Part shown: positions 7,474 through 14,470 of the stretch, piece after piece
Numbering within the stretch: the first letter of the stretch is position 1
Layout: each line of letters begins with the position of its first letter
Source: a virus
DNA: 15,761 bases
UHGV virus genome: UHGV-0242293
Strand: one strand, 5' to 3'
Program-made: the position numbers and the translations under genes
Notes under the pieces: generated by a model
The model's database searches: none
What the model was told of the DNA's origin: nothing
Seen by the model: the letters and a program-made list of their open reading frames with translations, nothing else

Positions 7474-7646
7474 TGTCAGGAGTCCTGAATAGTGATTAGA
7501 GGAGTCACATGTCGGCATCAGTTTCCCGACGATACGCATCCTCCGCCATCAGTCCCGGATGGCTTATCACTGACACAACAGCACCTTAGCGAATCGCGGG
7601 GCGCGACTCAGTAGCCTTGCCGTGTATTCATCACGGCGAGGTATTC
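7474..7646. promoter_or_regulatory. Divergent O/P intergenic region, expected site of the divergent late promoters
   Basis: 173-bp gap between the divergently transcribed O and P genes. In P2 the late promoters for the O and P operons lie here. I did not find an exact TGT-N12-ACA activator dyad by eye, so promoter elements are not pinpointed. Confidence 0.4.
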
Positions 7647-9419
7647 ATGACCATCACCACAGACACCACTCTTTTACACGACCCGCGTCGTCAGGCGGCG
7701 CTGCTGTACTGGCAGGGGTTTTCCGTGCCGCAGATTGCCGCCATGTTGCAGATGAAACGCCCGACGGTGCAGAGCTGGAAACAGCGCGACGGCTGGGACA
7801 GCGTTGCCCCCATCAGCCGTGTCGAAATGAGTCTGGAAGCGCGGCTGACCCAGCTCATCATCAAACCGCAGAAAACCGGCGGTGACTTCAAGGAAATTGA
7901 CCTGCTGGGACGTCAGATTGAACGACTGGCACGGGTCAACCGCTACAGTCAGACCGGCAACGAGGCAGACCTTAATCCGAACGTCGCTAACCGCAACAAA
8001 GGCGGGCGTCGCAAACCGAAAAAGAATTTTTTCAGTGACGAGGCCATCGAAAAGCTGGAGCAGATTTTCTTTGAGCAGTCTTTCGAATATCAGTTGCACT
8101 GGTATCGCGCCGGGCTTGAGCACCGCATCCGCGATATCCTGAAATCCCGCCAGATTGGCGCGACGTTTTATTTTTCCCGCGAGGCGCTGCTGCGCGCCCT
8201 GAAAACCGGTCATAACCAGATTTTTCTGTCGGCCAGTAAAACGCAGGCGTATGTGTTCCGCGAATACATCATCGCCTTTGCCCGGCTGGTTGACGTTGAC
8301 CTGACCGGTGACCCGATTGTCCTGGGCAATAACGGCGCAAAACTGATTTTTCTCGGCACCAACTCCAACACCGCACAGAGCCATAACGGCGACCTGTACG
8401 TCGACGAGATTTTCTGGATCCCGAATTTTCAGGTACTGCGTAAGGTGGCATCAGGTATGGCCTCACAGAGTCACCTGCGCTCGACCTATTTCTCCACCCC
8501 GTCCACGCTGGCGCACGACGCCTACCCGTTCTGGTCGGGTGAACTGTTCAACCGGGGACGCGCCAGCGCCGCCGAACGCGTGGAAATCGACGTCAGTCAT
8601 AACGCCCTTGCCGGAGGTCTTCTCTGTGCGGACGGCCAGTGGCGGCAGATTGTCACCATTGAGGACGCCCTGAAAGGCGGCTGCACGCTGTTCGACATTG
8701 AGCAGCTCAAACGTGAAAACAGCGCCGACGATTTTAAAAACCTGTTCATGTGTGAATTTGTTGACGACAAGGCGTCGGTGTTCCCGTTCGAGGAGCTGCA
8801 ACGTTGCATGGTCGACACGCTGGAAGAATGGGAAGACTATGCGCCGTTTGCCGCAAATCCGTTCGGCTCCCGCCCGGTATGGATTGGTTACGACCCGTCA
8901 CACCGTGGCGACAGCGCCGGATGCGTGGTACTGGCACCGCCGGTGGTGGCCGGTGGCAAATTCAGAATACTTGAGCGTCACCAGTGGAAAGGCATGGACT
9001 TTGCCACCCAGGCGGAATCCATCCGCAAACTCACCGAAAAATATAACGTTGAATACATCGGGATTGATGCCACCGGCCTCGGTGTCGGCGTGTTCCAGCT
9101 CGTGCGCTCGTTCTATCCCGCCGCGCGCGATATCCGCTACACGCCGGAAATGAAAACCGCAATGGTGCTCAAGGCAAAAGACGTTATCCGCCGTGGCTGT
9201 CTGGAATATGACGTCAGCGCCACCGACATCACCAGCTCGTTTATGGCTATCCGCAAGACCATGACCAGCAGCGGACGCAGCGCCACCTATGAGGCCAGCC
9301 GCAGCGAGGAAGCCAGCCACGCCGATCTCGCCTGGGCGACTATGCACGCCCTGTTAAATGAGCCACTCACCGCCGGTATCAGCACCCCGCTGACATCCAC
9401 CATTCTGGAGTTTTACTGA
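7647..9419 (+). CDS. P: Terminase large (ATPase) subunit gpP
   Basis: Start at MTITTDTTLLHDPRRQAALLYWQGF (ATG 7647, SD ggcgagg upstream) gives 590 aa, matching P2 gpP; the track ORF starts 10 codons earlier. Confidence 0.92.
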   Translation: MTITTDTTLLHDPRRQAALLYWQGFSVPQIAAMLQMKRPTVQSWKQRDGWDSVAPISRVEMSLEARLTQLIIKPQKTGGDFKEIDLLGRQIERLARVNRYSQTGNEADLNPNVANRNKGGRRKPKKNFFSDEAIEKLEQIFFEQSFEYQLHWYRAGLEHRIRDILKSRQIGATFYFSREALLRALKTGHNQIFLSASKTQAYVFREYIIAFARLVDVDLTGDPIVLGNNGAKLIFLGTNSNTAQSHNGDLYVDEIFWIPNFQVLRKVASGMASQSHLRSTYFSTPSTLAHDAYPFWSGELFNRGRASAAERVEIDVSHNALAGGLLCADGQWRQIVTIEDALKGGCTLFDIEQLKRENSADDFKNLFMCEFVDDKASVFPFEELQRCMVDTLEEWEDYAPFAANPFGSRPVWIGYDPSHRGDSAGCVVLAPPVVAGGKFRILERHQWKGMDFATQAESIRKLTEKYNVEYIGIDATGLGVGVFQLVRSFYPAARDIRYTPEMKTAMVLKAKDVIRRGCLEYDVSATDITSSFMAIRKTMTSSGRSATYEASRSEEASHADLAWATMHALLNEPLTAGISTPLTSTILEFY

Positions 9420-10438
9420 TGAGTAAGAAAAAAGGGAAAACACCGCAGCCAGCGGTGAAAACAATGACTGCCAGCGCCCCGAAAATGGAGGCATTCACCT
9501 TTGGTGAGCCGGTGCCGGTACTCGACCGCCGTGATATTCTGGATTACGTCGAGTGCATCAGTAACGGCAGATGGTATGAGCCACCGGTCAGCTTTACCGG
9601 TCTGGCAAAAAGCCTGCGTGCTGCCGTGCATCACAGCTCACCGATTTACGTTAAACGCAATATTCTGGCTTCAACGTTTATCCCGCACCCGTGGCTGTCC
9701 CAGCAGGATTTCAGCCGCTTTGTGCTGGATTTTCTGGTGTTCGGTAATGCGTTTCTGGAAAAGCGTTACAGCACCACCGGTAAGGTCATCAGACTGGAAA
9801 CCTCACCGGCAAAATATACCCGCCGTGGCGTGGAGGAGGATGTTTACTGGTGGGTGCCGTCCTTCAACGAGCCGACAGCCTTCGCGCCCGGCTCCGTGTT
9901 TCACCTGCTGGAGCCGGATATCAATCAGGAGCTGTACGGCCTGCCGGAATATCTCAGCGCCCTTAACTCTGCCTGGCTGAATGAGTCGGCCACGCTGTTC
10001 CGCCGCAAGTATTACGAAAACGGCGCTCATGCCGGATACATCATGTATGTCACCGATGCCGTGCAGGATCGCAACGATATCGAAATGCTTCGCGAAAACA
10101 TGGTTAAGTCGAAAGGCCGCAACAACTTTAAAAACCTGTTTCTCTATGCCCCACAGGGGAAAGCCGACGGCATTAAAATTATCCCCCTCAGTGAAGTGGC
10201 GACGAAGGACGATTTTTTTAATATCAAAAAAGTCAGCGCCGCAGATCTCCTGGACGCACACCGCATCCCCTTTCAGTTGATGGGCGGTAAGCCGGAGAAT
10301 GTCGGGTCACTAGGAGATATTGAAAAAGTGGCAAAGGTCTTTGTCCGCAATGAACTCATTCCATTACAGGAGAGAATAAAGTCAATAAATGAATGGTTAG
10401 ATATGGAAGTAATAAAATTCCTTGATTATAACTTATAA
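9419..10438 (+). CDS. Q: Portal protein gpQ
   Basis: 339-aa ORF (MSKKKGKTPQPAVKTMTASAPKMEAFTFGEP...) matching P2 gpQ; start overlaps the P stop (TGATG). The last ~15-30 codons are AT-rich, suggesting the 3' end was remodelled by the adjacent insertion. Confidence 0.88.
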   Translation: MSKKKGKTPQPAVKTMTASAPKMEAFTFGEPVPVLDRRDILDYVECISNGRWYEPPVSFTGLAKSLRAAVHHSSPIYVKRNILASTFIPHPWLSQQDFSRFVLDFLVFGNAFLEKRYSTTGKVIRLETSPAKYTRRGVEEDVYWWVPSFNEPTAFAPGSVFHLLEPDINQELYGLPEYLSALNSAWLNESATLFRRKYYENGAHAGYIMYVTDAVQDRNDIEMLRENMVKSKGRNNFKNLFLYAPQGKADGIKIIPLSEVATKDDFFNIKKVSAADLLDAHRIPFQLMGGKPENVGSLGDIEKVAKVFVRNELIPLQERIKSINEWLDMEVIKFLDYNL

Positions 10439-10449
10439 GTAAATATATA

Positions 10450-10478
10450 AAGTTGGCGGAATGCAATCCCGCCAACTT
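10450..10478. terminator. Perfect 10-bp hairpin between convergent Q and the retron effector gene; candidate bidirectional terminator
   Basis: aagttggcgg-(9 nt loop)-ccgccaactt read directly from the sequence, lying between the Q stop (10438) and the minus-strand effector stop (10481), with A/T-rich flanks on both sides. Confidence 0.5.
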
Positions 10479-10480
10479 AA

Positions 10481-11188
10481 CTATATATACTTCCTTTTTA
10501 CTCTACTTAATTCTATCACTGATGAGGAGTGACAAAATGACAAATTAATAGTATCGATATAATCCAAAATTTGACTCTCAACCTCAATAAAAATATTTTT
10601 GGGCCCATTACTAATCGATATACCGATTTCATCCAAAACAGCCATCATTTTTCTCTGATGAGTTTTATATTTATAGTCTTTATTTTCCTCTGTAATATGT
10701 GCATTGGCTTCCTCAATAACACATTTGATTCTAGATATTATTTCTAGATAATCTCTCGAAACAGATATATCACCGCCTTGCGCTTCAGGGAACATAACCC
10801 TATACCATCTAAAAAAATTAACTTTCTCTGGATAGATGCTACTTCTTTTAGTTAACTCAGCACTTGCAAATTCTCTAAACATCGTCAGATGACTAGTGTA
10901 ATTACTATTATTATTATTTTTAACTCCAGCGTTATATGTCATCAAAGCAATCATAACACCAAAAACGGTAACAAAAGTTGTTATAAGCCATCCAAACGCC
11001 TGAAAATACATTACTATACCAGATGTTTTTTCCGCAAAAAATTTTAAGCACTGGCTATCGAAGCATATATCACGCTCATATAGCTTTTCATTCTGAATAG
11101 TTTCAAAAAGAGAAATTAGCGAAAAAATCAAAAAAAGAGCTGACGACACACCGACAATATATTTGAGAAGTCTAATATTTGCATTCAT
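10481..11188 (-). CDS. Retron-associated effector: two N-terminal transmembrane helices plus a ~150-aa soluble C-terminal domain of unknown function
   Basis: 235-aa ORF. Hydrophobic stretches LLKYIVGVSSALFLIFSLISLF and IVMYFQAFGWLITTFVTVFGVMIALMTY. Its ATG overlaps the RT stop as ATGA (11185-11188), indicating translational coupling. AT-rich, unlike the phage backbone. Confidence 0.75.
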   Translation of the reverse strand: MNANIRLLKYIVGVSSALFLIFSLISLFETIQNEKLYERDICFDSQCLKFFAEKTSGIVMYFQAFGWLITTFVTVFGVMIALMTYNAGVKNNNNSNYTSHLTMFREFASAELTKRSSIYPEKVNFFRWYRVMFPEAQGGDISVSRDYLEIISRIKCVIEEANAHITEENKDYKYKTHQRKMMAVLDEIGISISNGPKNIFIEVESQILDYIDTINLSFCHSSSVIELSRVKRKYI

Positions 11189-12375
11189 AATGGTTTTAAA
11201 GATGCCAATCTAGATTTAAAACACTCCAGTTTTTCTTTAAATGATTCAGAGCGAGTAAGAATAATCATCTTATATTTCGTCAAATCATATTTTCTTTTAT
11301 ACCAATGTTTATTTTGATTACCTTTCGAATACGACAACTCTAAACTTTTTATAGCTGCATCAATCACAGCAACATCTCTTTTAGATGGCATCGGTTTTAT
11401 TGCCTGCAACTGTTTCTTGAATGATTCATATTTTTCATGCGCAACACGGCCAAGCTTATTCACTCTCCCCATACATCTATTGAATTCTTTTCTGTATGCA
11501 ACACTTGTTTTTGTGTTATTTTTTGCCGCCAGTAATTTCAAATTATGTATAGATGCCCTGATTCTTTTGACTTCATCGGATGGTAGTCGAGGTGAGTCAT
11601 AGTCAACTCTTAAACCATGTACTTTTATAGGTTCAGATGAACAGTGAAATATTTTAGTTTTGCGCTTATTTATCGGCAAGTCATGCTCAGAAAGCATCCT
11701 CTCTATATGGCTTTGCATTTGAGAAAAATCATAATTACTTATTTTAGATGACACGGTAATATCATCTACCAAACGCGTATAAACAAGTCCTTTCCTCTGC
11801 GCACGTCTTACCACATCCCCTTCAACAGCGAATAAACACAAAGTTGCTATATAGCTTGATGTTAAGGCCCCCTGTACGACAAAATCATCCTTAGTACATA
11901 TATCCACCAAGTATTCAAGAGCCTCATCCTTAATATGCAATATCTCCTCAAACACGCTCCTAACCAGATCTCTATGGATATTATCGAAAAAATTACTTAT
12001 ATCCACCTTGAGAACTGTTTTTGCTCCACAATGAGCCTTTGCACATGAAACATAGTCACGTTTGACATTAGAATTTAAAACATCATTTTTACTGGGAACT
12101 GAACCAAACAAAAATGAAGGAAAAACAACCAATTCCTTAAAGATACGTTTATTAATTCTACTCTGTAATAATCTCATTTTAGGATGCAGGGAGTAGACAA
12201 TCCGTTTGCTTCCGTCAATTTTGGGAATTTCTTTTAGAGTATATTTCTCATCTAATGGTAATTCTGCAATAGCTTTAAGCTCTTCAACAGAAATCGATAA
12301 AGCCTTTGACAACTTTTCAAGTGTTGTGATAGGAGCATTGGATTTGCTGTATGGTTTAAATTTATCCATAAACAT
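11185..12375 (-). CDS. Retron-type reverse transcriptase
   Basis: RT motifs in the translation: LKVDISNFFDNI (motif A), QGALTSSYIATLCLF (motif B), YTRLVDDITV (YxDD active site), NKRKTKIF, then KVHGLRV where retron RTs have the VTG signature. Block-by-block similarity to retron Ec86 RT from memory. Start is uncertain: 12375 or 12369 is favoured by alignment, but 12411 and 12459 are in frame. Confidence 0.85.
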   Translation of the reverse strand: MFMDKFKPYSKSNAPITTLEKLSKALSISVEELKAIAELPLDEKYTLKEIPKIDGSKRIVYSLHPKMRLLQSRINKRIFKELVVFPSFLFGSVPSKNDVLNSNVKRDYVSCAKAHCGAKTVLKVDISNFFDNIHRDLVRSVFEEILHIKDEALEYLVDICTKDDFVVQGALTSSYIATLCLFAVEGDVVRRAQRKGLVYTRLVDDITVSSKISNYDFSQMQSHIERMLSEHDLPINKRKTKIFHCSSEPIKVHGLRVDYDSPRLPSDEVKRIRASIHNLKLLAAKNNTKTSVAYRKEFNRCMGRVNKLGRVAHEKYESFKKQLQAIKPMPSKRDVAVIDAAIKSLELSYSKGNQNKHWYKRKYDLTKYKMIILTRSESFKEKLECFKSRLASLKPL

Positions 12376-12443
12376 ACCATTCAAATTCAAAGTTACGTAC
12401 GGTCTTCCCATACTCAAGGGTGGAACAGCAGAGATGCTTACAT

Positions 12444-12593
12444 CAACAATTGTCAGCAACAGCCTCTGCTATCTTTCGACCGTACGTAATGTCGTCGGCT
12501 ACGGCACCATCGTAGTTGACGACGGTGGGGCCTCGCTGATAGGTCCATAGTGGACGCTTTTTTGTAAAAGCAAAAACTGACAATTTAATGTTG
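12444..12593 (-). ncRNA. Candidate retron msr-msd non-coding RNA
   Basis: Immediately upstream of the RT on the same strand. An interrupted inverted repeat (minus strand caacaTTAAattgtcag at 12577-12593, and ctgacaattgttg at 12444-12456) brackets ~120 nt. Inside are stem-loops gcttttacaaaaaagc, gtccactatggac, and a longer imperfect hairpin gtcgtcaactacg/cgtagccgacgac. Boundaries and the branching G are not determined. Confidence 0.4.
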
Positions 12594-12646
12594 TTGACTG
12601 CCGCATACCAAGCGAATCGCTGGTGCGCTAAGAATAATGCAACAAA

Positions 12647-12676
12647 AAAATAAGAATTTCAACCGGGTAACTGCAA
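12647..12676 (-). promoter_or_regulatory. Candidate sigma70 promoter for the retron ncRNA-RT-effector operon
   Basis: On the minus strand: TTGCAG (12676-12671), an 18-nt spacer, then TATTTT (12652-12647), about 50 nt upstream of the proposed a1 repeat. Confidence 0.35.
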
Positions 12677-12700
12677 GCCAGCGACATCGTTTAGCGCGCA

Positions 12701-12719
12701 GTGCTTTCCCCGCCTCGCC
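12701..12719. other. P2-type cos site (19-nt cohesive end)
   Basis: The minus strand reads GGCGAGGCGGGGAAAGCAC, which is the P2 cohesive-end sequence as I recall it, followed by TGCGCGCT. It lies between the terminase/portal genes and the tin/old-equivalent locus, as expected. Confidence 0.8.
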
Positions 12720-12742
12720 CGCCCGCTTCATGGGGCGGTTTT
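12719..12742 (+). terminator. GC-rich hairpin plus T-tract next to cos; possible intrinsic terminator
   Basis: ccgccc-(8 nt)-gggcgg followed by tttt on the plus strand. It abuts the cos core, so it may instead be part of the packaging site. Confidence 0.3.
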
Positions 12743-12925
12743 AATGCAGTAGCATGACCACTCAACTAGCGCGCCAGTCCTGATGTCGCCAGGCAGTTAT
12801 TGTTCTCTGACTTGCGTGCGCTTCGATGCAGAGTAATGCACTTCCTGAATTGCTCGCATTCGCATCGTTATCATGATAGAAAACAGGTAGTTATTTGTGC
12901 GCAACTTAAGAAGAAATCACTAATT

Positions 12926-14470
12926 ATGAAAAAGATTTATGAATTAACTACTGGTAGAGCGCTTAAGTATTTTCTGCAGCATGATTCATACACTACTCTG
13001 GAGCTACCCAGTTATGTCGATTTTTCTTCCTTGCTTGAAGAAATCAACTCCGCGATAGATGAAGGTAAAATCAACTTCCAACCTGACTCCAAGTCATTGA
13101 TGGGGAAGAATATAAATTACGAGGTTTTAGTCAGCAAAGATGGCTTATATAGCTGGCGACGAATAACACTAATTAATCCTCTGTACTACGTGTATTTTTG
13201 TAAACTTATTACATCCCCTTCCAACTGGAAGGCTATAAAGAATAAATTTAGAGAGTTTGAGTCTAATGATCTTTTTTTATGCTCAAGTACCCCAGTGAGC
13301 AAAAAGAACACCTCAAACGTAGCTGCATCTGTTTTAAACTGGTGGGAAGATTTTGAACAAAAAAGTCTTTCATTGGCTCTTGAGTATGAGTTCATGTTCA
13401 GCACAGATATTTCAAACTTCTACCCTTCTATTTACACTCATAGCTTTGAATGGGTATTCATCTCAAAAGAAGAGGCCAAAAAGAAAGAAAATAACAATAA
13501 CCCAGGACGATTGATTGACACTCATATCCAGATGATGATGAGTAATCAGACAAACGGAATACCATTGGGTAGTACGTTGATGGATACATTTGCCGAATTA
13601 ATTTTAGGCGAAATTGATTTACAGCTAAGAAAAAAAACTGAAGAGCAAAAAATAACGGATTACAAAGTAGTTCGCTACAGAGATGATTATCGAATATTTT
13701 CAAGCAGTAAAGATGATTTGGACAAAATCTCAAAGTGTTTGGTTGAGGTCTTAGGTGAGTTTGGGCTTGATTTAAACTCAAGAAAAACAGAACTACATGA
13801 CGACATCATTCTTCACTCTCTTAAATCAGCAAAAAAAGAATATATTATAGAAAGGTCGTTCAACTCCCTACAGAAAATGTTGTATGCAATATATTTATTT
13901 TCTTTAAAACATCAAAACTCCAAAATTACAGTTAGATATTTAAATGATTTCTTGCGAAAATTATTTAGGAAGAAAAAGATCACAAATAGTGGGCATCAAC
14001 TAGATGCAATGCTTGGAATTATTTCAAGCATCATGGCTAAAAACCCAACCACCTACCCAGTGGGAATGGCTATTTTCGCAAAACTCTTGACCTTCCTTTA
14101 TGACGACGATGAACTCAAATTTGGCAAGTTACAACAACTTCATTGTAAACTAGGTAAACAACCAAATACTGAAATGTTAGATATTTGGTTTCAACGAGTT
14201 CAAGGGAAGATACACACACAATGGGAAGGCGATTACAAAACAGCCCTATGTCAACGCATAAATGATGAACTCAAGGGAAAAAAAACATTTACCATTGATG
14301 GCCTGTGGGATGTAGAGTGGATTCCGGGCTCAGCCAAAAGTAAAAACAAACAGAAAATACTATCAATTTTGAAAAAAACAAAAATTGTGGATTTAGATGC
14401 ATTCGAAGAAATGGATAATGATATTACACCAGAAGAAGTGAACTTATTCGACAAGGAACACAGCGCTTAA
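12926..14470 (+). CDS. Abi-like reverse transcriptase (proposed Abi-P2 / UG-Abi class) with a C-terminal alpha-helical domain
   Basis: 514-aa product from the ATG at 12926 (the track ORF begins in GC-rich cos-proximal DNA at 12800). RT motifs FSTDISNFYPSIYTH, GIPLGSTLMDTFAELIL, VVRYRDDYRIF (YxDD), GLDLNSRKTEL; the C-terminal ~200 aa lacks RT motifs. No VTG motif, and no obvious structured ncRNA or partner gene. It sits where P2 carries tin/old, where Abi-P2 RTs have been reported. Confidence 0.8.
   Translation: MKKIYELTTGRALKYFLQHDSYTTLELPSYVDFSSLLEEINSAIDEGKINFQPDSKSLMGKNINYEVLVSKDGLYSWRRITLINPLYYVYFCKLITSPSNWKAIKNKFREFESNDLFLCSSTPVSKKNTSNVAASVLNWWEDFEQKSLSLALEYEFMFSTDISNFYPSIYTHSFEWVFISKEEAKKKENNNNPGRLIDTHIQMMMSNQTNGIPLGSTLMDTFAELILGEIDLQLRKKTEEQKITDYKVVRYRDDYRIFSSSKDDLDKISKCLVEVLGEFGLDLNSRKTELHDDIILHSLKSAKKEYIIERSFNSLQKMLYAIYLFSLKHQNSKITVRYLNDFLRKLFRKKKITNSGHQLDAMLGIISSIMAKNPTTYPVGMAIFAKLLTFLYDDDELKFGKLQQLHCKLGKQPNTEMLDIWFQRVQGKIHTQWEGDYKTALCQRINDELKGKKTFTIDGLWDVEWIPGSAKSKNKQKILSILKKTKIVDLDAFEEMDNDITPEEVNLFDKEHSA

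What the first reader, a model, noticed from the sequence alone, without database searches (positions are those of the whole stretch)
10481..11188. 2TM effector with an unassigned ~150-aa cytoplasmic domain
After two N-terminal TM helices, the C-terminal half (from about NAGVKNNNN onward) has no motif I recognise: no obvious nuclease, NTPase or TIR signature. It is the likely effector of the retron and may be a distinct effector domain.
Basis: inference. Interest (0 to 1): 0.5.

Follow-up and report, generated by a model that had tools for sequence, protein, structure and literature searches.

The report
Known retron Ec48 membrane effector
This gene is the already described and experimentally tested membrane effector of the anti-phage retron Ec48 (Retron-Eco6), carried in a P2-like prophage; it is not a new effector, although nobody yet knows what its cytoplasmic helical domain does.

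Summary
The ORF is real: 235 aa on the minus strand (10481-11188), with two N-terminal TM helices and a 149-aa C-terminal domain starting at NAGVKNNNN. The protein matches curated models for the retron Ec48 2TM effector over its full length: PADLOC 2TM_IV (E=4e-85) and NCBIfam NF038235, an equivalog model (227 bits against a cut-off of 65). Pfam PF28197 (Retron_Ec48_antiviral) is attached to it in the protein database. Its exact sequence carries the UniRef100 name of Swiss-Prot TM48_ECOLX, the effector tested by Millman et al. 2020. It overlaps by ATGA the stop of a type IV retron RT, which lies downstream of an msr/msd ncRNA with a1/a2 repeats. The operon sits in the cos-proximal defence hotspot of a P2-like prophage.

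A confident AlphaFold model (pLDDT 91) is a helical bundle with no significant match among solved structures and no Pfam, HEPN or HPt signature.

Most likely mechanism: a RecBCD-guarding abortive-infection effector whose TM hairpin damages the inner membrane under control of the cytoplasmic domain. Verdict: already known; low interest.

The parts
10481..11188 (-). Effector CDS, 235 aa plus stop: the retron Ec48 (Retron-Eco6) 2TM effector
   Evidence: It is listed as an ORF and translated. It matches PADLOC 2TM_IV at E=4.1e-85, covering residues 3-235 against model positions 5-235 of 235. It matches NCBIfam NF038235 at 226.7 bits against a cut-off of 65. The exact sequence carries the name TM48_ECOLX.
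11105..11161 (-). TM helix 1 (residues ~10-28)
   Evidence: Mean hydropathy reaches 2.23 over 19 residues. It is helical in the AlphaFold model. It lies within the delta3-85 deletion that abolished defence in Millman et al..
11018..11104 (-). Loop between the TM helices (residues 29-57), inferred periplasmic, with near-invariant Cys42 and Cys47
   Evidence: C42 is conserved in 97% and C47 in 96% of 163 family members. The periplasmic location and a disulfide between the two cysteines are inferred from the topology, not shown.
10931..11017 (-). TM helix 2 (residues ~58-86); in the model it continues as one long helix into the cytoplasmic domain
   Evidence: It is supported by the hydropathy scan. 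The model has a single helix over model residues 55-112, which are true residues 56-113.
10484..10930 (-). C-terminal cytoplasmic helical domain (residues 87-235), specific to the family and of unknown biochemical activity
10450..10478 (-). Intrinsic-terminator-like hairpin (13-bp stem) just after the effector stop, between the convergent effector and portal genes
   Evidence: It was found by the terminator scan. This is a consensus match only.
11185..12411 (-). Retron type IV reverse transcriptase (408 aa from MGRPYV); its stop overlaps the effector start in ATGA
   Evidence: It matches PADLOC RT_IV at E=1e-176 and Pfam RVT_1. Its nearest solved relatives are retron Ec86 and Kva2 RTs. The catalytic aspartates of the VDD motif fall at 216/217 only with this start, which is the numbering of Millman et al.. 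Diverged loci align from residue 1 of this form. RefSeq instead starts the gene at 12369, giving 394 aa.
12448..12585 (-). Retron ncRNA (msr-msd), bounded by the a1 repeat (12577-12585) and the a2 repeat (12448-12456). The msd hairpin lies at about 12491-12523. The inferred msDNA 5' end lies at about 12457.
   Evidence: There is a perfect 9-nt inverted repeat, AATTGTCAG/CTGACAATT, and a 13-nt internal hairpin. The RNA fold is -52.2 kcal/mol, with z=-4.3 against shuffles. No Rfam family matches. The msDNA ends are inferred, not shown.
12634..12662 (-). Candidate sigma-70 promoter upstream of the ncRNA
   Evidence: It matches 9 of 12 consensus positions. The scan found no more sites than in shuffled sequence, so the support is weak.
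12701..12719 (-). P2 cos cohesive-end 19-mer, GGCGAGGCGGGGAAAGCAC. It is context, marking the cos-proximal defence hotspot.
   Evidence: There is one exact match, with none expected by chance. I supplied the 19-mer from memory. The flanking 58 nt match P2 genomes at 98-100% identity.

Best explanation
The ORF encodes the effector of retron Ec48 (Retron-Eco6, type IV in the Mestre classification). It is the last gene of a three-part operon, ncRNA then RT then effector, carried as cargo in the cos-proximal hotspot between gpQ and gpA of a P2-like prophage.

Shown here: the identity of the protein, its architecture, the operon context and conservation across the family.

Taken from the literature for this same protein: the system defends against phages by abortive infection. 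It is triggered when phage proteins (lambda Gam, T7 gp5.9) or loss of recB inactivate RecBCD. Defence needs both RT catalysis and the effector's TM region.

Inferred: the N-in/C-in TM hairpin is the membrane-damaging part. The 149-aa cytoplasmic helical bundle, which is a direct extension of TM2, is the receiver. It couples the state of the RT-msDNA complex to oligomerisation or opening of the TM hairpins. The effector is therefore held inactive until it is triggered. I put about 0.97 on the identity and about 0.5 on this specific division of labour.
For: Identity: the protein matches PADLOC 2TM_IV at E=4e-85 over its full length and the NCBIfam equivalog retron_Ec48_2TM at 226.7 bits against a cut-off of 65. 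Pfam PF28197 Retron_Ec48_antiviral is precomputed on it and on its relatives. RefSeq gives the same name in 57 complete E. coli genomes that carry the region at 80% coverage or more, the listed ones 100% identical. The exact sequence equals the UniRef100 cluster TM48_ECOLX.

Context: an RT_IV reverse transcriptase lies directly upstream with an ATGA overlap. The a1/a2 repeats and a structured ncRNA lie upstream of the RT. In four distinct diverged loci (Proteus, Buttiauxella, Xenorhabdus, Kosakonia), a 54-56% identical RT lies directly upstream of a 38-41% identical effector.

Function, from the literature: the delta3-85 deletion and the RT D216A/D217A mutation both abolish defence, Gam and gp5.9 trigger death, and the plasmid cannot be transformed into a recB deletion strain (Millman bioRxiv). 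Gam triggering of Retron-Eco6 was reproduced in 2025, and defence against T7 was reconfirmed in 2026.

Gating inference: the effector alone is not toxic when overexpressed (Palka 2022). The model shows TM2 and the first cytoplasmic helix as one continuous helix. The domain has no enzyme-like fold match.
Against: No experiment read here shows membrane damage by this protein. The pore idea in Millman et al. is an analogy with CBASS TM effectors. The TM deletion shows only that the TM region is needed, not that the membrane is the target. The C-domain carries many near-invariant polar residues (E111, H177, Q178, E204, N162 and several Tyr). These would fit a catalytic or ligand-binding pocket at least as well as a protein-protein interface. 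I could not model complexes, so contact between the effector and the RT-msDNA complex is untested.
Confidence: 0.85

Rival explanations
1. The C-terminal domain is a membrane-tethered enzyme or small-molecule-binding module that does the killing, and the TM hairpin only localises it. Possible activities include a hydrolase or phosphotransfer-type activity using H177, Q178, E204 and E111.
Confidence: 0.2
2. The protein is not itself a toxin. It is a membrane anchor or adaptor that positions the RT-msDNA complex or recruits a host factor, and death results from something else.
For: Overexpression of the Eco6 accessory protein alone did not impair growth, unlike the Eco4, Eco9 and Sen2 effectors (Palka 2022).
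Against: The operon encodes no other protein. The system works when moved on a plasmid into E. coli K-12. The family keeps a strictly two-gene arrangement in distant genera. All other retron types use the accessory gene as the toxic effector.
Confidence: 0.12
3. This is the first reader's reading: a distinct, previously unrecognised effector domain fused to a 2TM anchor.
For: There is no hit in the local Pfam-A copy and no sequence relative in the PDB.
Against: The whole protein, C-domain included, is covered end to end by three curated family models and is identical to the characterised Ec48 effector. All 233 family representatives match the profile across both the TM part and the C-domain, with no alternative architecture.
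Confidence: 0.01

Closest known systems
Retron Ec48 / Retron-Eco6 transmembrane effector (Swiss-Prot TM48_ECOLX; NCBIfam NF038235; Pfam PF28197; PADLOC 2TM_IV; Mestre type IV cluster 826_1)
   Same: The sequence is identical (UniRef100). The length, the two TM helices, the overlap with the type IV RT and the host species are all the same. This is the same thing, not a relative.
   Different: No difference was detected. The prophage context (P2-like, cos-proximal hotspot) is simply made explicit here.
Transmembrane effectors of CBASS, the analogy used by Millman et al.
   Same: They are small proteins with N-terminal TM helices that act as the killing module of an abortive-infection system after a cytoplasmic signal.
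   Different: There is no sequence relationship: the PADLOC scan returned only 2TM_IV. CBASS effectors are activated by cyclic nucleotides through known sensor domains, whereas here the cytoplasmic domain is an orphan helical bundle and the signal comes from an RT-msDNA complex.
P2 Old, the cargo of the same hotspot in phage P2 itself
   Same: It occupies the same gpQ-cos-gpA hotspot of P2-like phages. It is likewise activated by recB loss or by lambda Gam.
   Different: Old is a soluble ABC-ATPase/TOPRIM nuclease, unrelated in sequence and mechanism.
Histidine phosphotransfer (HPt) four-helix bundles
   Different: The scores are not significant: Foldseek E of 1.4 or worse, TM about 0.33, identity 4-12%. 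No Hpt Pfam signal recurs in the family. This is a resemblance of generic helical bundles, not evidence of membership.

Membership tests
Retron Ec48 family 2TM effector (type IV retron) | Full-length match to the curated family profile above its cut-off | tested here: met
   NCBIfam NF038235, an equivalog model, scores 226.7 bits against a cut-off of 65. PADLOC 2TM_IV gives E=4.1e-85 over model positions 5-235 of 235.
Retron Ec48 family 2TM effector (type IV retron) | Two N-terminal transmembrane helices | tested here: met
   Hydropathy peaks lie at residues 10-28 and 58-86, and the AlphaFold model has helices there. No dedicated topology predictor was available.
Retron Ec48 family 2TM effector (type IV retron) | Gene lies just downstream of, or overlaps, a clade-3 type IV retron RT | tested here: met
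   The upstream ORF matches RT_IV at E=1e-176, far better than any other RT type. The two genes overlap in ATGA. Four distinct diverged loci have the same arrangement.
Retron Ec48 family 2TM effector (type IV retron) | msr/msd ncRNA with flanking a1/a2 inverted repeats upstream of the RT | tested here: met
   A perfect 9-nt a1/a2 repeat flanks a 138-nt structured segment, with fold z=-4.3. Rfam has no matching family. msDNA production cannot be tested here.
Retron Ec48 family 2TM effector (type IV retron) | Identity with the experimentally characterised protein | tested here: met
   The exact-sequence look-up returns the name 'Retron Ec48 transmembrane protein ... RepID=TM48_ECOLX'.
Retron Ec48 family 2TM effector (type IV retron) | Anti-phage abortive infection triggered by RecBCD inhibition and requiring the TM region | not testable with these tools
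   This is known from the literature for this protein (Millman bioRxiv 10.1101/2020.06.21.156273).
HEPN superfamily | Conserved Rx4-6H motif at the start of a core helix | tested here: not met
   H177 is invariant, but no conserved Arg lies 5-7 residues upstream. Position 173 is K or R in only 53% of members, and positions 170-172 are variable or aromatic.
HEPN superfamily | Significant fold or profile match | tested here: not met
HPt phosphotransfer domain | Significant fold match, plus the Hpt profile or the H-x-x-K-G motif | tested here: not met
Other defence-system TM effectors (CBASS and similar) | Sequence similarity to their profiles | tested here: not met
   The PADLOC scan of 5027 models returned only 2TM_IV.

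The most novel reading that the evidence does not exclude
The cytoplasmic domain of the Ec48 effector family is an orphan fold. Its near-invariant polar cluster (E111, N162, H177, Q178, E204 and several Tyr) may form a catalytic or nucleic-acid/ligand-binding site. In that case the protein would be a membrane-tethered enzyme or direct msDNA sensor rather than a simple pore-former. The invariant Cys42/Cys47 pair in the loop may form a periplasmic disulfide needed for assembly. This would revise the assumed 'membrane pore' mechanism of a textbook retron, but it would not make the gene itself new.
Probability: 0.2. Interest if true: 0.45.

Novelty: already known. Interest (0 to 1): 0.1.

Why it matters
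As a finding it matters little. The gene is annotated under this name in RefSeq, has Swiss-Prot, NCBIfam, Pfam and PADLOC entries, and belongs to one of the best-known anti-phage retrons. What remains open is how the effector kills and what its 149-aa cytoplasmic domain does. That question is already recognised in the field: Mestre 2020 says the proteins 'lacked identifiable domains', and Palka 2022 found the effector non-toxic on its own. First, there is a confident model of a helical bundle continuous with TM2 and without structural relatives. Second, there is a short list of family-invariant polar residues to mutate. Third, there is an invariant Cys pair in the loop between the TM helices.

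Tried and rejected
- **Local Pfam-A scan** of the protein and of 131 family members: nothing consistent. DUF2207_C appeared in 27 of 131 members; I take it, without checking the coordinates, to reflect the TM region. PF28197 is newer than the local copy.
- **PDB sequence searches** with the single protein and with a 131-sequence profile: no relative. The only hit was a designed coiled coil aligned to the TM region.
- **Foldseek against afdb50**: the library was not available. Structural relatives among unsolved proteins therefore remain unchecked.
- **Rfam** at the gathering threshold: no retron ncRNA family matched.
- **Published Ec48 sequences**: I looked for ncRNA or protein sequences in the supplements of Palka 2022 and the retron census. 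No sequence strings are held. The census gave only the Eco6 RT accession, WP_097505494.1. I did not confirm that the window's RT is identical to that accession.
- **Papers not held**: Mao et al. 1997 and the Cell version of Millman 2020. The published msDNA-Ec48 sequence and any membrane-permeability data in the Cell version could not be checked.
- **The search for related loci** with the 131-sequence alignment failed because no stretch was conserved enough. The 35-sequence alignment gave three further loci.

Full report
**1.

The window has an ATG-initiated ORF at exactly 10481-11188 on the minus strand, encoding 235 aa. A Kyte-Doolittle scan with 19-residue windows finds two hydrophobic segments, at residues about 10-28 and about 58-86. 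The ORF's ATG overlaps the stop of the upstream ORF in the tetranucleotide ATGA. A 13-bp-stem terminator-like hairpin follows its stop. The gene has 31% G+C, against 51-57% for the neighbouring phage structural genes.

**2. What it is**

- A scan against PADLOC-DB returns a single family, 2TM_IV, at E=4.1e-85. The match covers residues 3-235 against model positions 5-235 of 235.
- NCBIfam returns NF038235 'retron Ec48 family effector membrane protein', an equivalog model, at 226.7 bits against a curated cut-off of 65.
- In the large protein database, the protein and all its relatives carry the precomputed Pfam family PF28197, named Retron_Ec48_antiviral. That family is absent from the older local Pfam copy, which is why the direct Pfam scan was empty.
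- The 2.35-kb region is held at 80% coverage or more by 57 of 5426 complete E. coli genomes; the 15 listed are 100% identical and are annotated there with that product name.
- An exact-sequence look-up shows that this very sequence carries the UniRef100 name 'Retron Ec48 transmembrane protein, RepID=TM48_ECOLX'. It occurs on at least 1000 contigs.

The ORF is therefore the Ec48 (Retron-Eco6) effector itself.

**3. Context**

*The RT.* The upstream ORF is a retron RT. It matches PADLOC RT_IV at E=1e-176, against 1e-62 for the next type, and Pfam RVT_1. Its nearest solved relatives are the Ec86 and Kva2 retron RTs. Starting the RT at 12411 (MGRPYV, 408 aa) puts the catalytic aspartates at 216/217. 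That is the numbering used by Millman et al. for their D216A/D217A mutant. tblastn to four diverged loci also aligns from residue 1 of this form. The RefSeq start at 12369, giving 394 aa, is therefore probably 14 codons short.

*The ncRNA.* Upstream of the RT lies a perfect 9-nt inverted repeat: a1 at 12577-12585 and a2 at 12448-12456. It encloses a 138-nt segment with an internal 13-nt hairpin. The segment folds well below shuffled controls, at -52.2 kcal/mol with z=-4.3. This is the expected msr/msd layout. No Rfam family matched.

*The prophage.* The operon sits between the P2-type portal gene (9419-10438; Pfam Phage_portal) and the P2 cos 19-mer (12701-12719, with the 19-mer supplied from memory). 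The flanking 58 nt match P2 genomes at 98-100% identity. Beyond cos lies an AbiP2-type RT, followed by the gpA replication endonuclease. This is the cos-proximal hotspot between gpA and gpQ of P2-like phages, described by Rousset et al. 2022 as a reservoir of defence systems that includes retrons (PMC9122126). The same retron is present in the deposited phage pro147.

**4. The family**

A profile search of 1.84 billion cluster representatives finds 233 family members at E of 1e-3 or better. Nearly all are 200-270 aa and match across both the TM part and the C-domain. No alternative domain architecture appears. In four distinct diverged loci (Proteus, Buttiauxella, Xenorhabdus, Kosakonia), effectors 38-41% identical to this one are each preceded directly by an RT 54-56% identical.

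Across 163 members (21-68% identical to the window protein), the following positions are near-invariant:

- **Loop between the TM helices:** C42 and C47.
- **TM2:** A81 and Y85.
- **C-domain:** F104 (100%), E111, K/R114, Y129, G139, S144, Y147, N162, H177 (99%), Q178 (96%), G189, P196, R/K197, F200, E204 (99%), N215, F218, R232 and Y234.

**5. The C-terminal domain**

AlphaFold2 with a 35-sequence alignment gives a full-length model with pLDDT 84.6. TM2 continues without a break as one helix of about 58 residues into the cytoplasmic domain. Modelled alone (residues 88-235), the domain reaches pLDDT 91.1 and pTM 0.86, and is a five-helix bundle.

- Foldseek against the PDB gives nothing better than E=1.4 and TM 0.32.
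- No Hpt, HEPN or other soluble-domain Pfam family recurs among 131 members scanned at E up to 1.
- A 131-sequence profile finds no relative in the PDB.
- There is no conserved Rx4-6H motif.

Mestre et al. 2020 said the same: 'lacked identifiable domains' (PMC7736814). But the domain is an integral part of the known family, not a new module.

**6. How it most likely works**

*Established for this protein in the literature.* The Ec48 system defends by abortive infection. The RT catalytic mutant and the effector delta3-85 deletion (both TM helices) each abolish defence. Phage escape mutants map to lambda gam and T7 gene 5.9. Expression of Gam or gp5.9 kills Ec48-bearing cells. The plasmid cannot be introduced into a recB deletion strain (bioRxiv 10.1101/2020.06.21.156273). 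Gam triggering was reproduced in 2025, and defence against T7 in 2026. Palka et al. 2022 found that the Eco6 accessory protein alone is not toxic on overexpression (PMC8989520).

*My inference.* The topology is N-in/C-in. The evidence is R6 and K9 before TM1, and an invariant Cys pair in the loop, which fits a periplasmic disulfide. The TM hairpin is the membrane-active part. The cytoplasmic bundle, rigidly connected to TM2, receives the signal from the RT-msDNA complex and controls assembly or opening. This explains both the need for all three components and the lack of toxicity of the effector alone.

*The main rival (about 0.2).* The conserved polar cluster is a catalytic or ligand-binding site, and the TM hairpin only anchors it. 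Nothing I could run separates the two.

**7. Verdict**

Novelty: already known. Interest: low. The remaining open question is the biochemical role of the C-domain, and it belongs to the Ec48 field rather than to this window.

Noticed in passing
window 12926-14470 (+) (longest ORF from 12800): There is a second reverse-transcriptase defence gene of the AbiP2 type (PADLOC AbiP2 E=4.7e-160; RefSeq names it 'RNA-directed DNA polymerase'). It lies on the other side of cos from the Ec48 retron. One P2 hotspot therefore carries two unrelated RT-based systems.
   Followed up: partly
window 12701-12719 (-): The P2 cos cohesive-end 19-mer is present exactly. The retron therefore lies between gpQ and cos, and AbiP2 lies between cos and gpA.
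   Followed up: partly
window 12369-12411 (-): RefSeq starts the Ec48 RT at 12369 (394 aa). Diverged homologues align from residue 1 of the 408-aa form starting at 12411. Only that start reproduces the published D216/D217 numbering. The RefSeq start is probably 14 codons too short.
   Followed up: yes
window 11048-11065 (-), effector residues C42 and C47: Two cysteines spaced CxxxxC in the loop between the TM helices are conserved in 96-97% of 163 family members. They probably form a periplasmic disulfide. None of the papers read mentions them.
   Followed up: partly
window 10481-14470 versus 7617-10438: The cargo genes have 31-35% G+C (effector, RT, AbiP2), against 51-57% for the portal and terminase genes. 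This is consistent with horizontally acquired hotspot cargo.
   Followed up: no
window 10481-12719 (the gpQ-cos part of the hotspot): In phage P2 this hotspot holds old, which is also activated by recB loss or lambda Gam. Here a different RecBCD guard, Ec48, occupies the same position. This suggests functional replacement within the hotspot.
   Followed up: no
window 10450-10478: A perfect 13-bp hairpin lies between the convergent portal and effector genes. It was called as a terminator on the minus strand and could also terminate the portal transcript from the other side.
   Followed up: no
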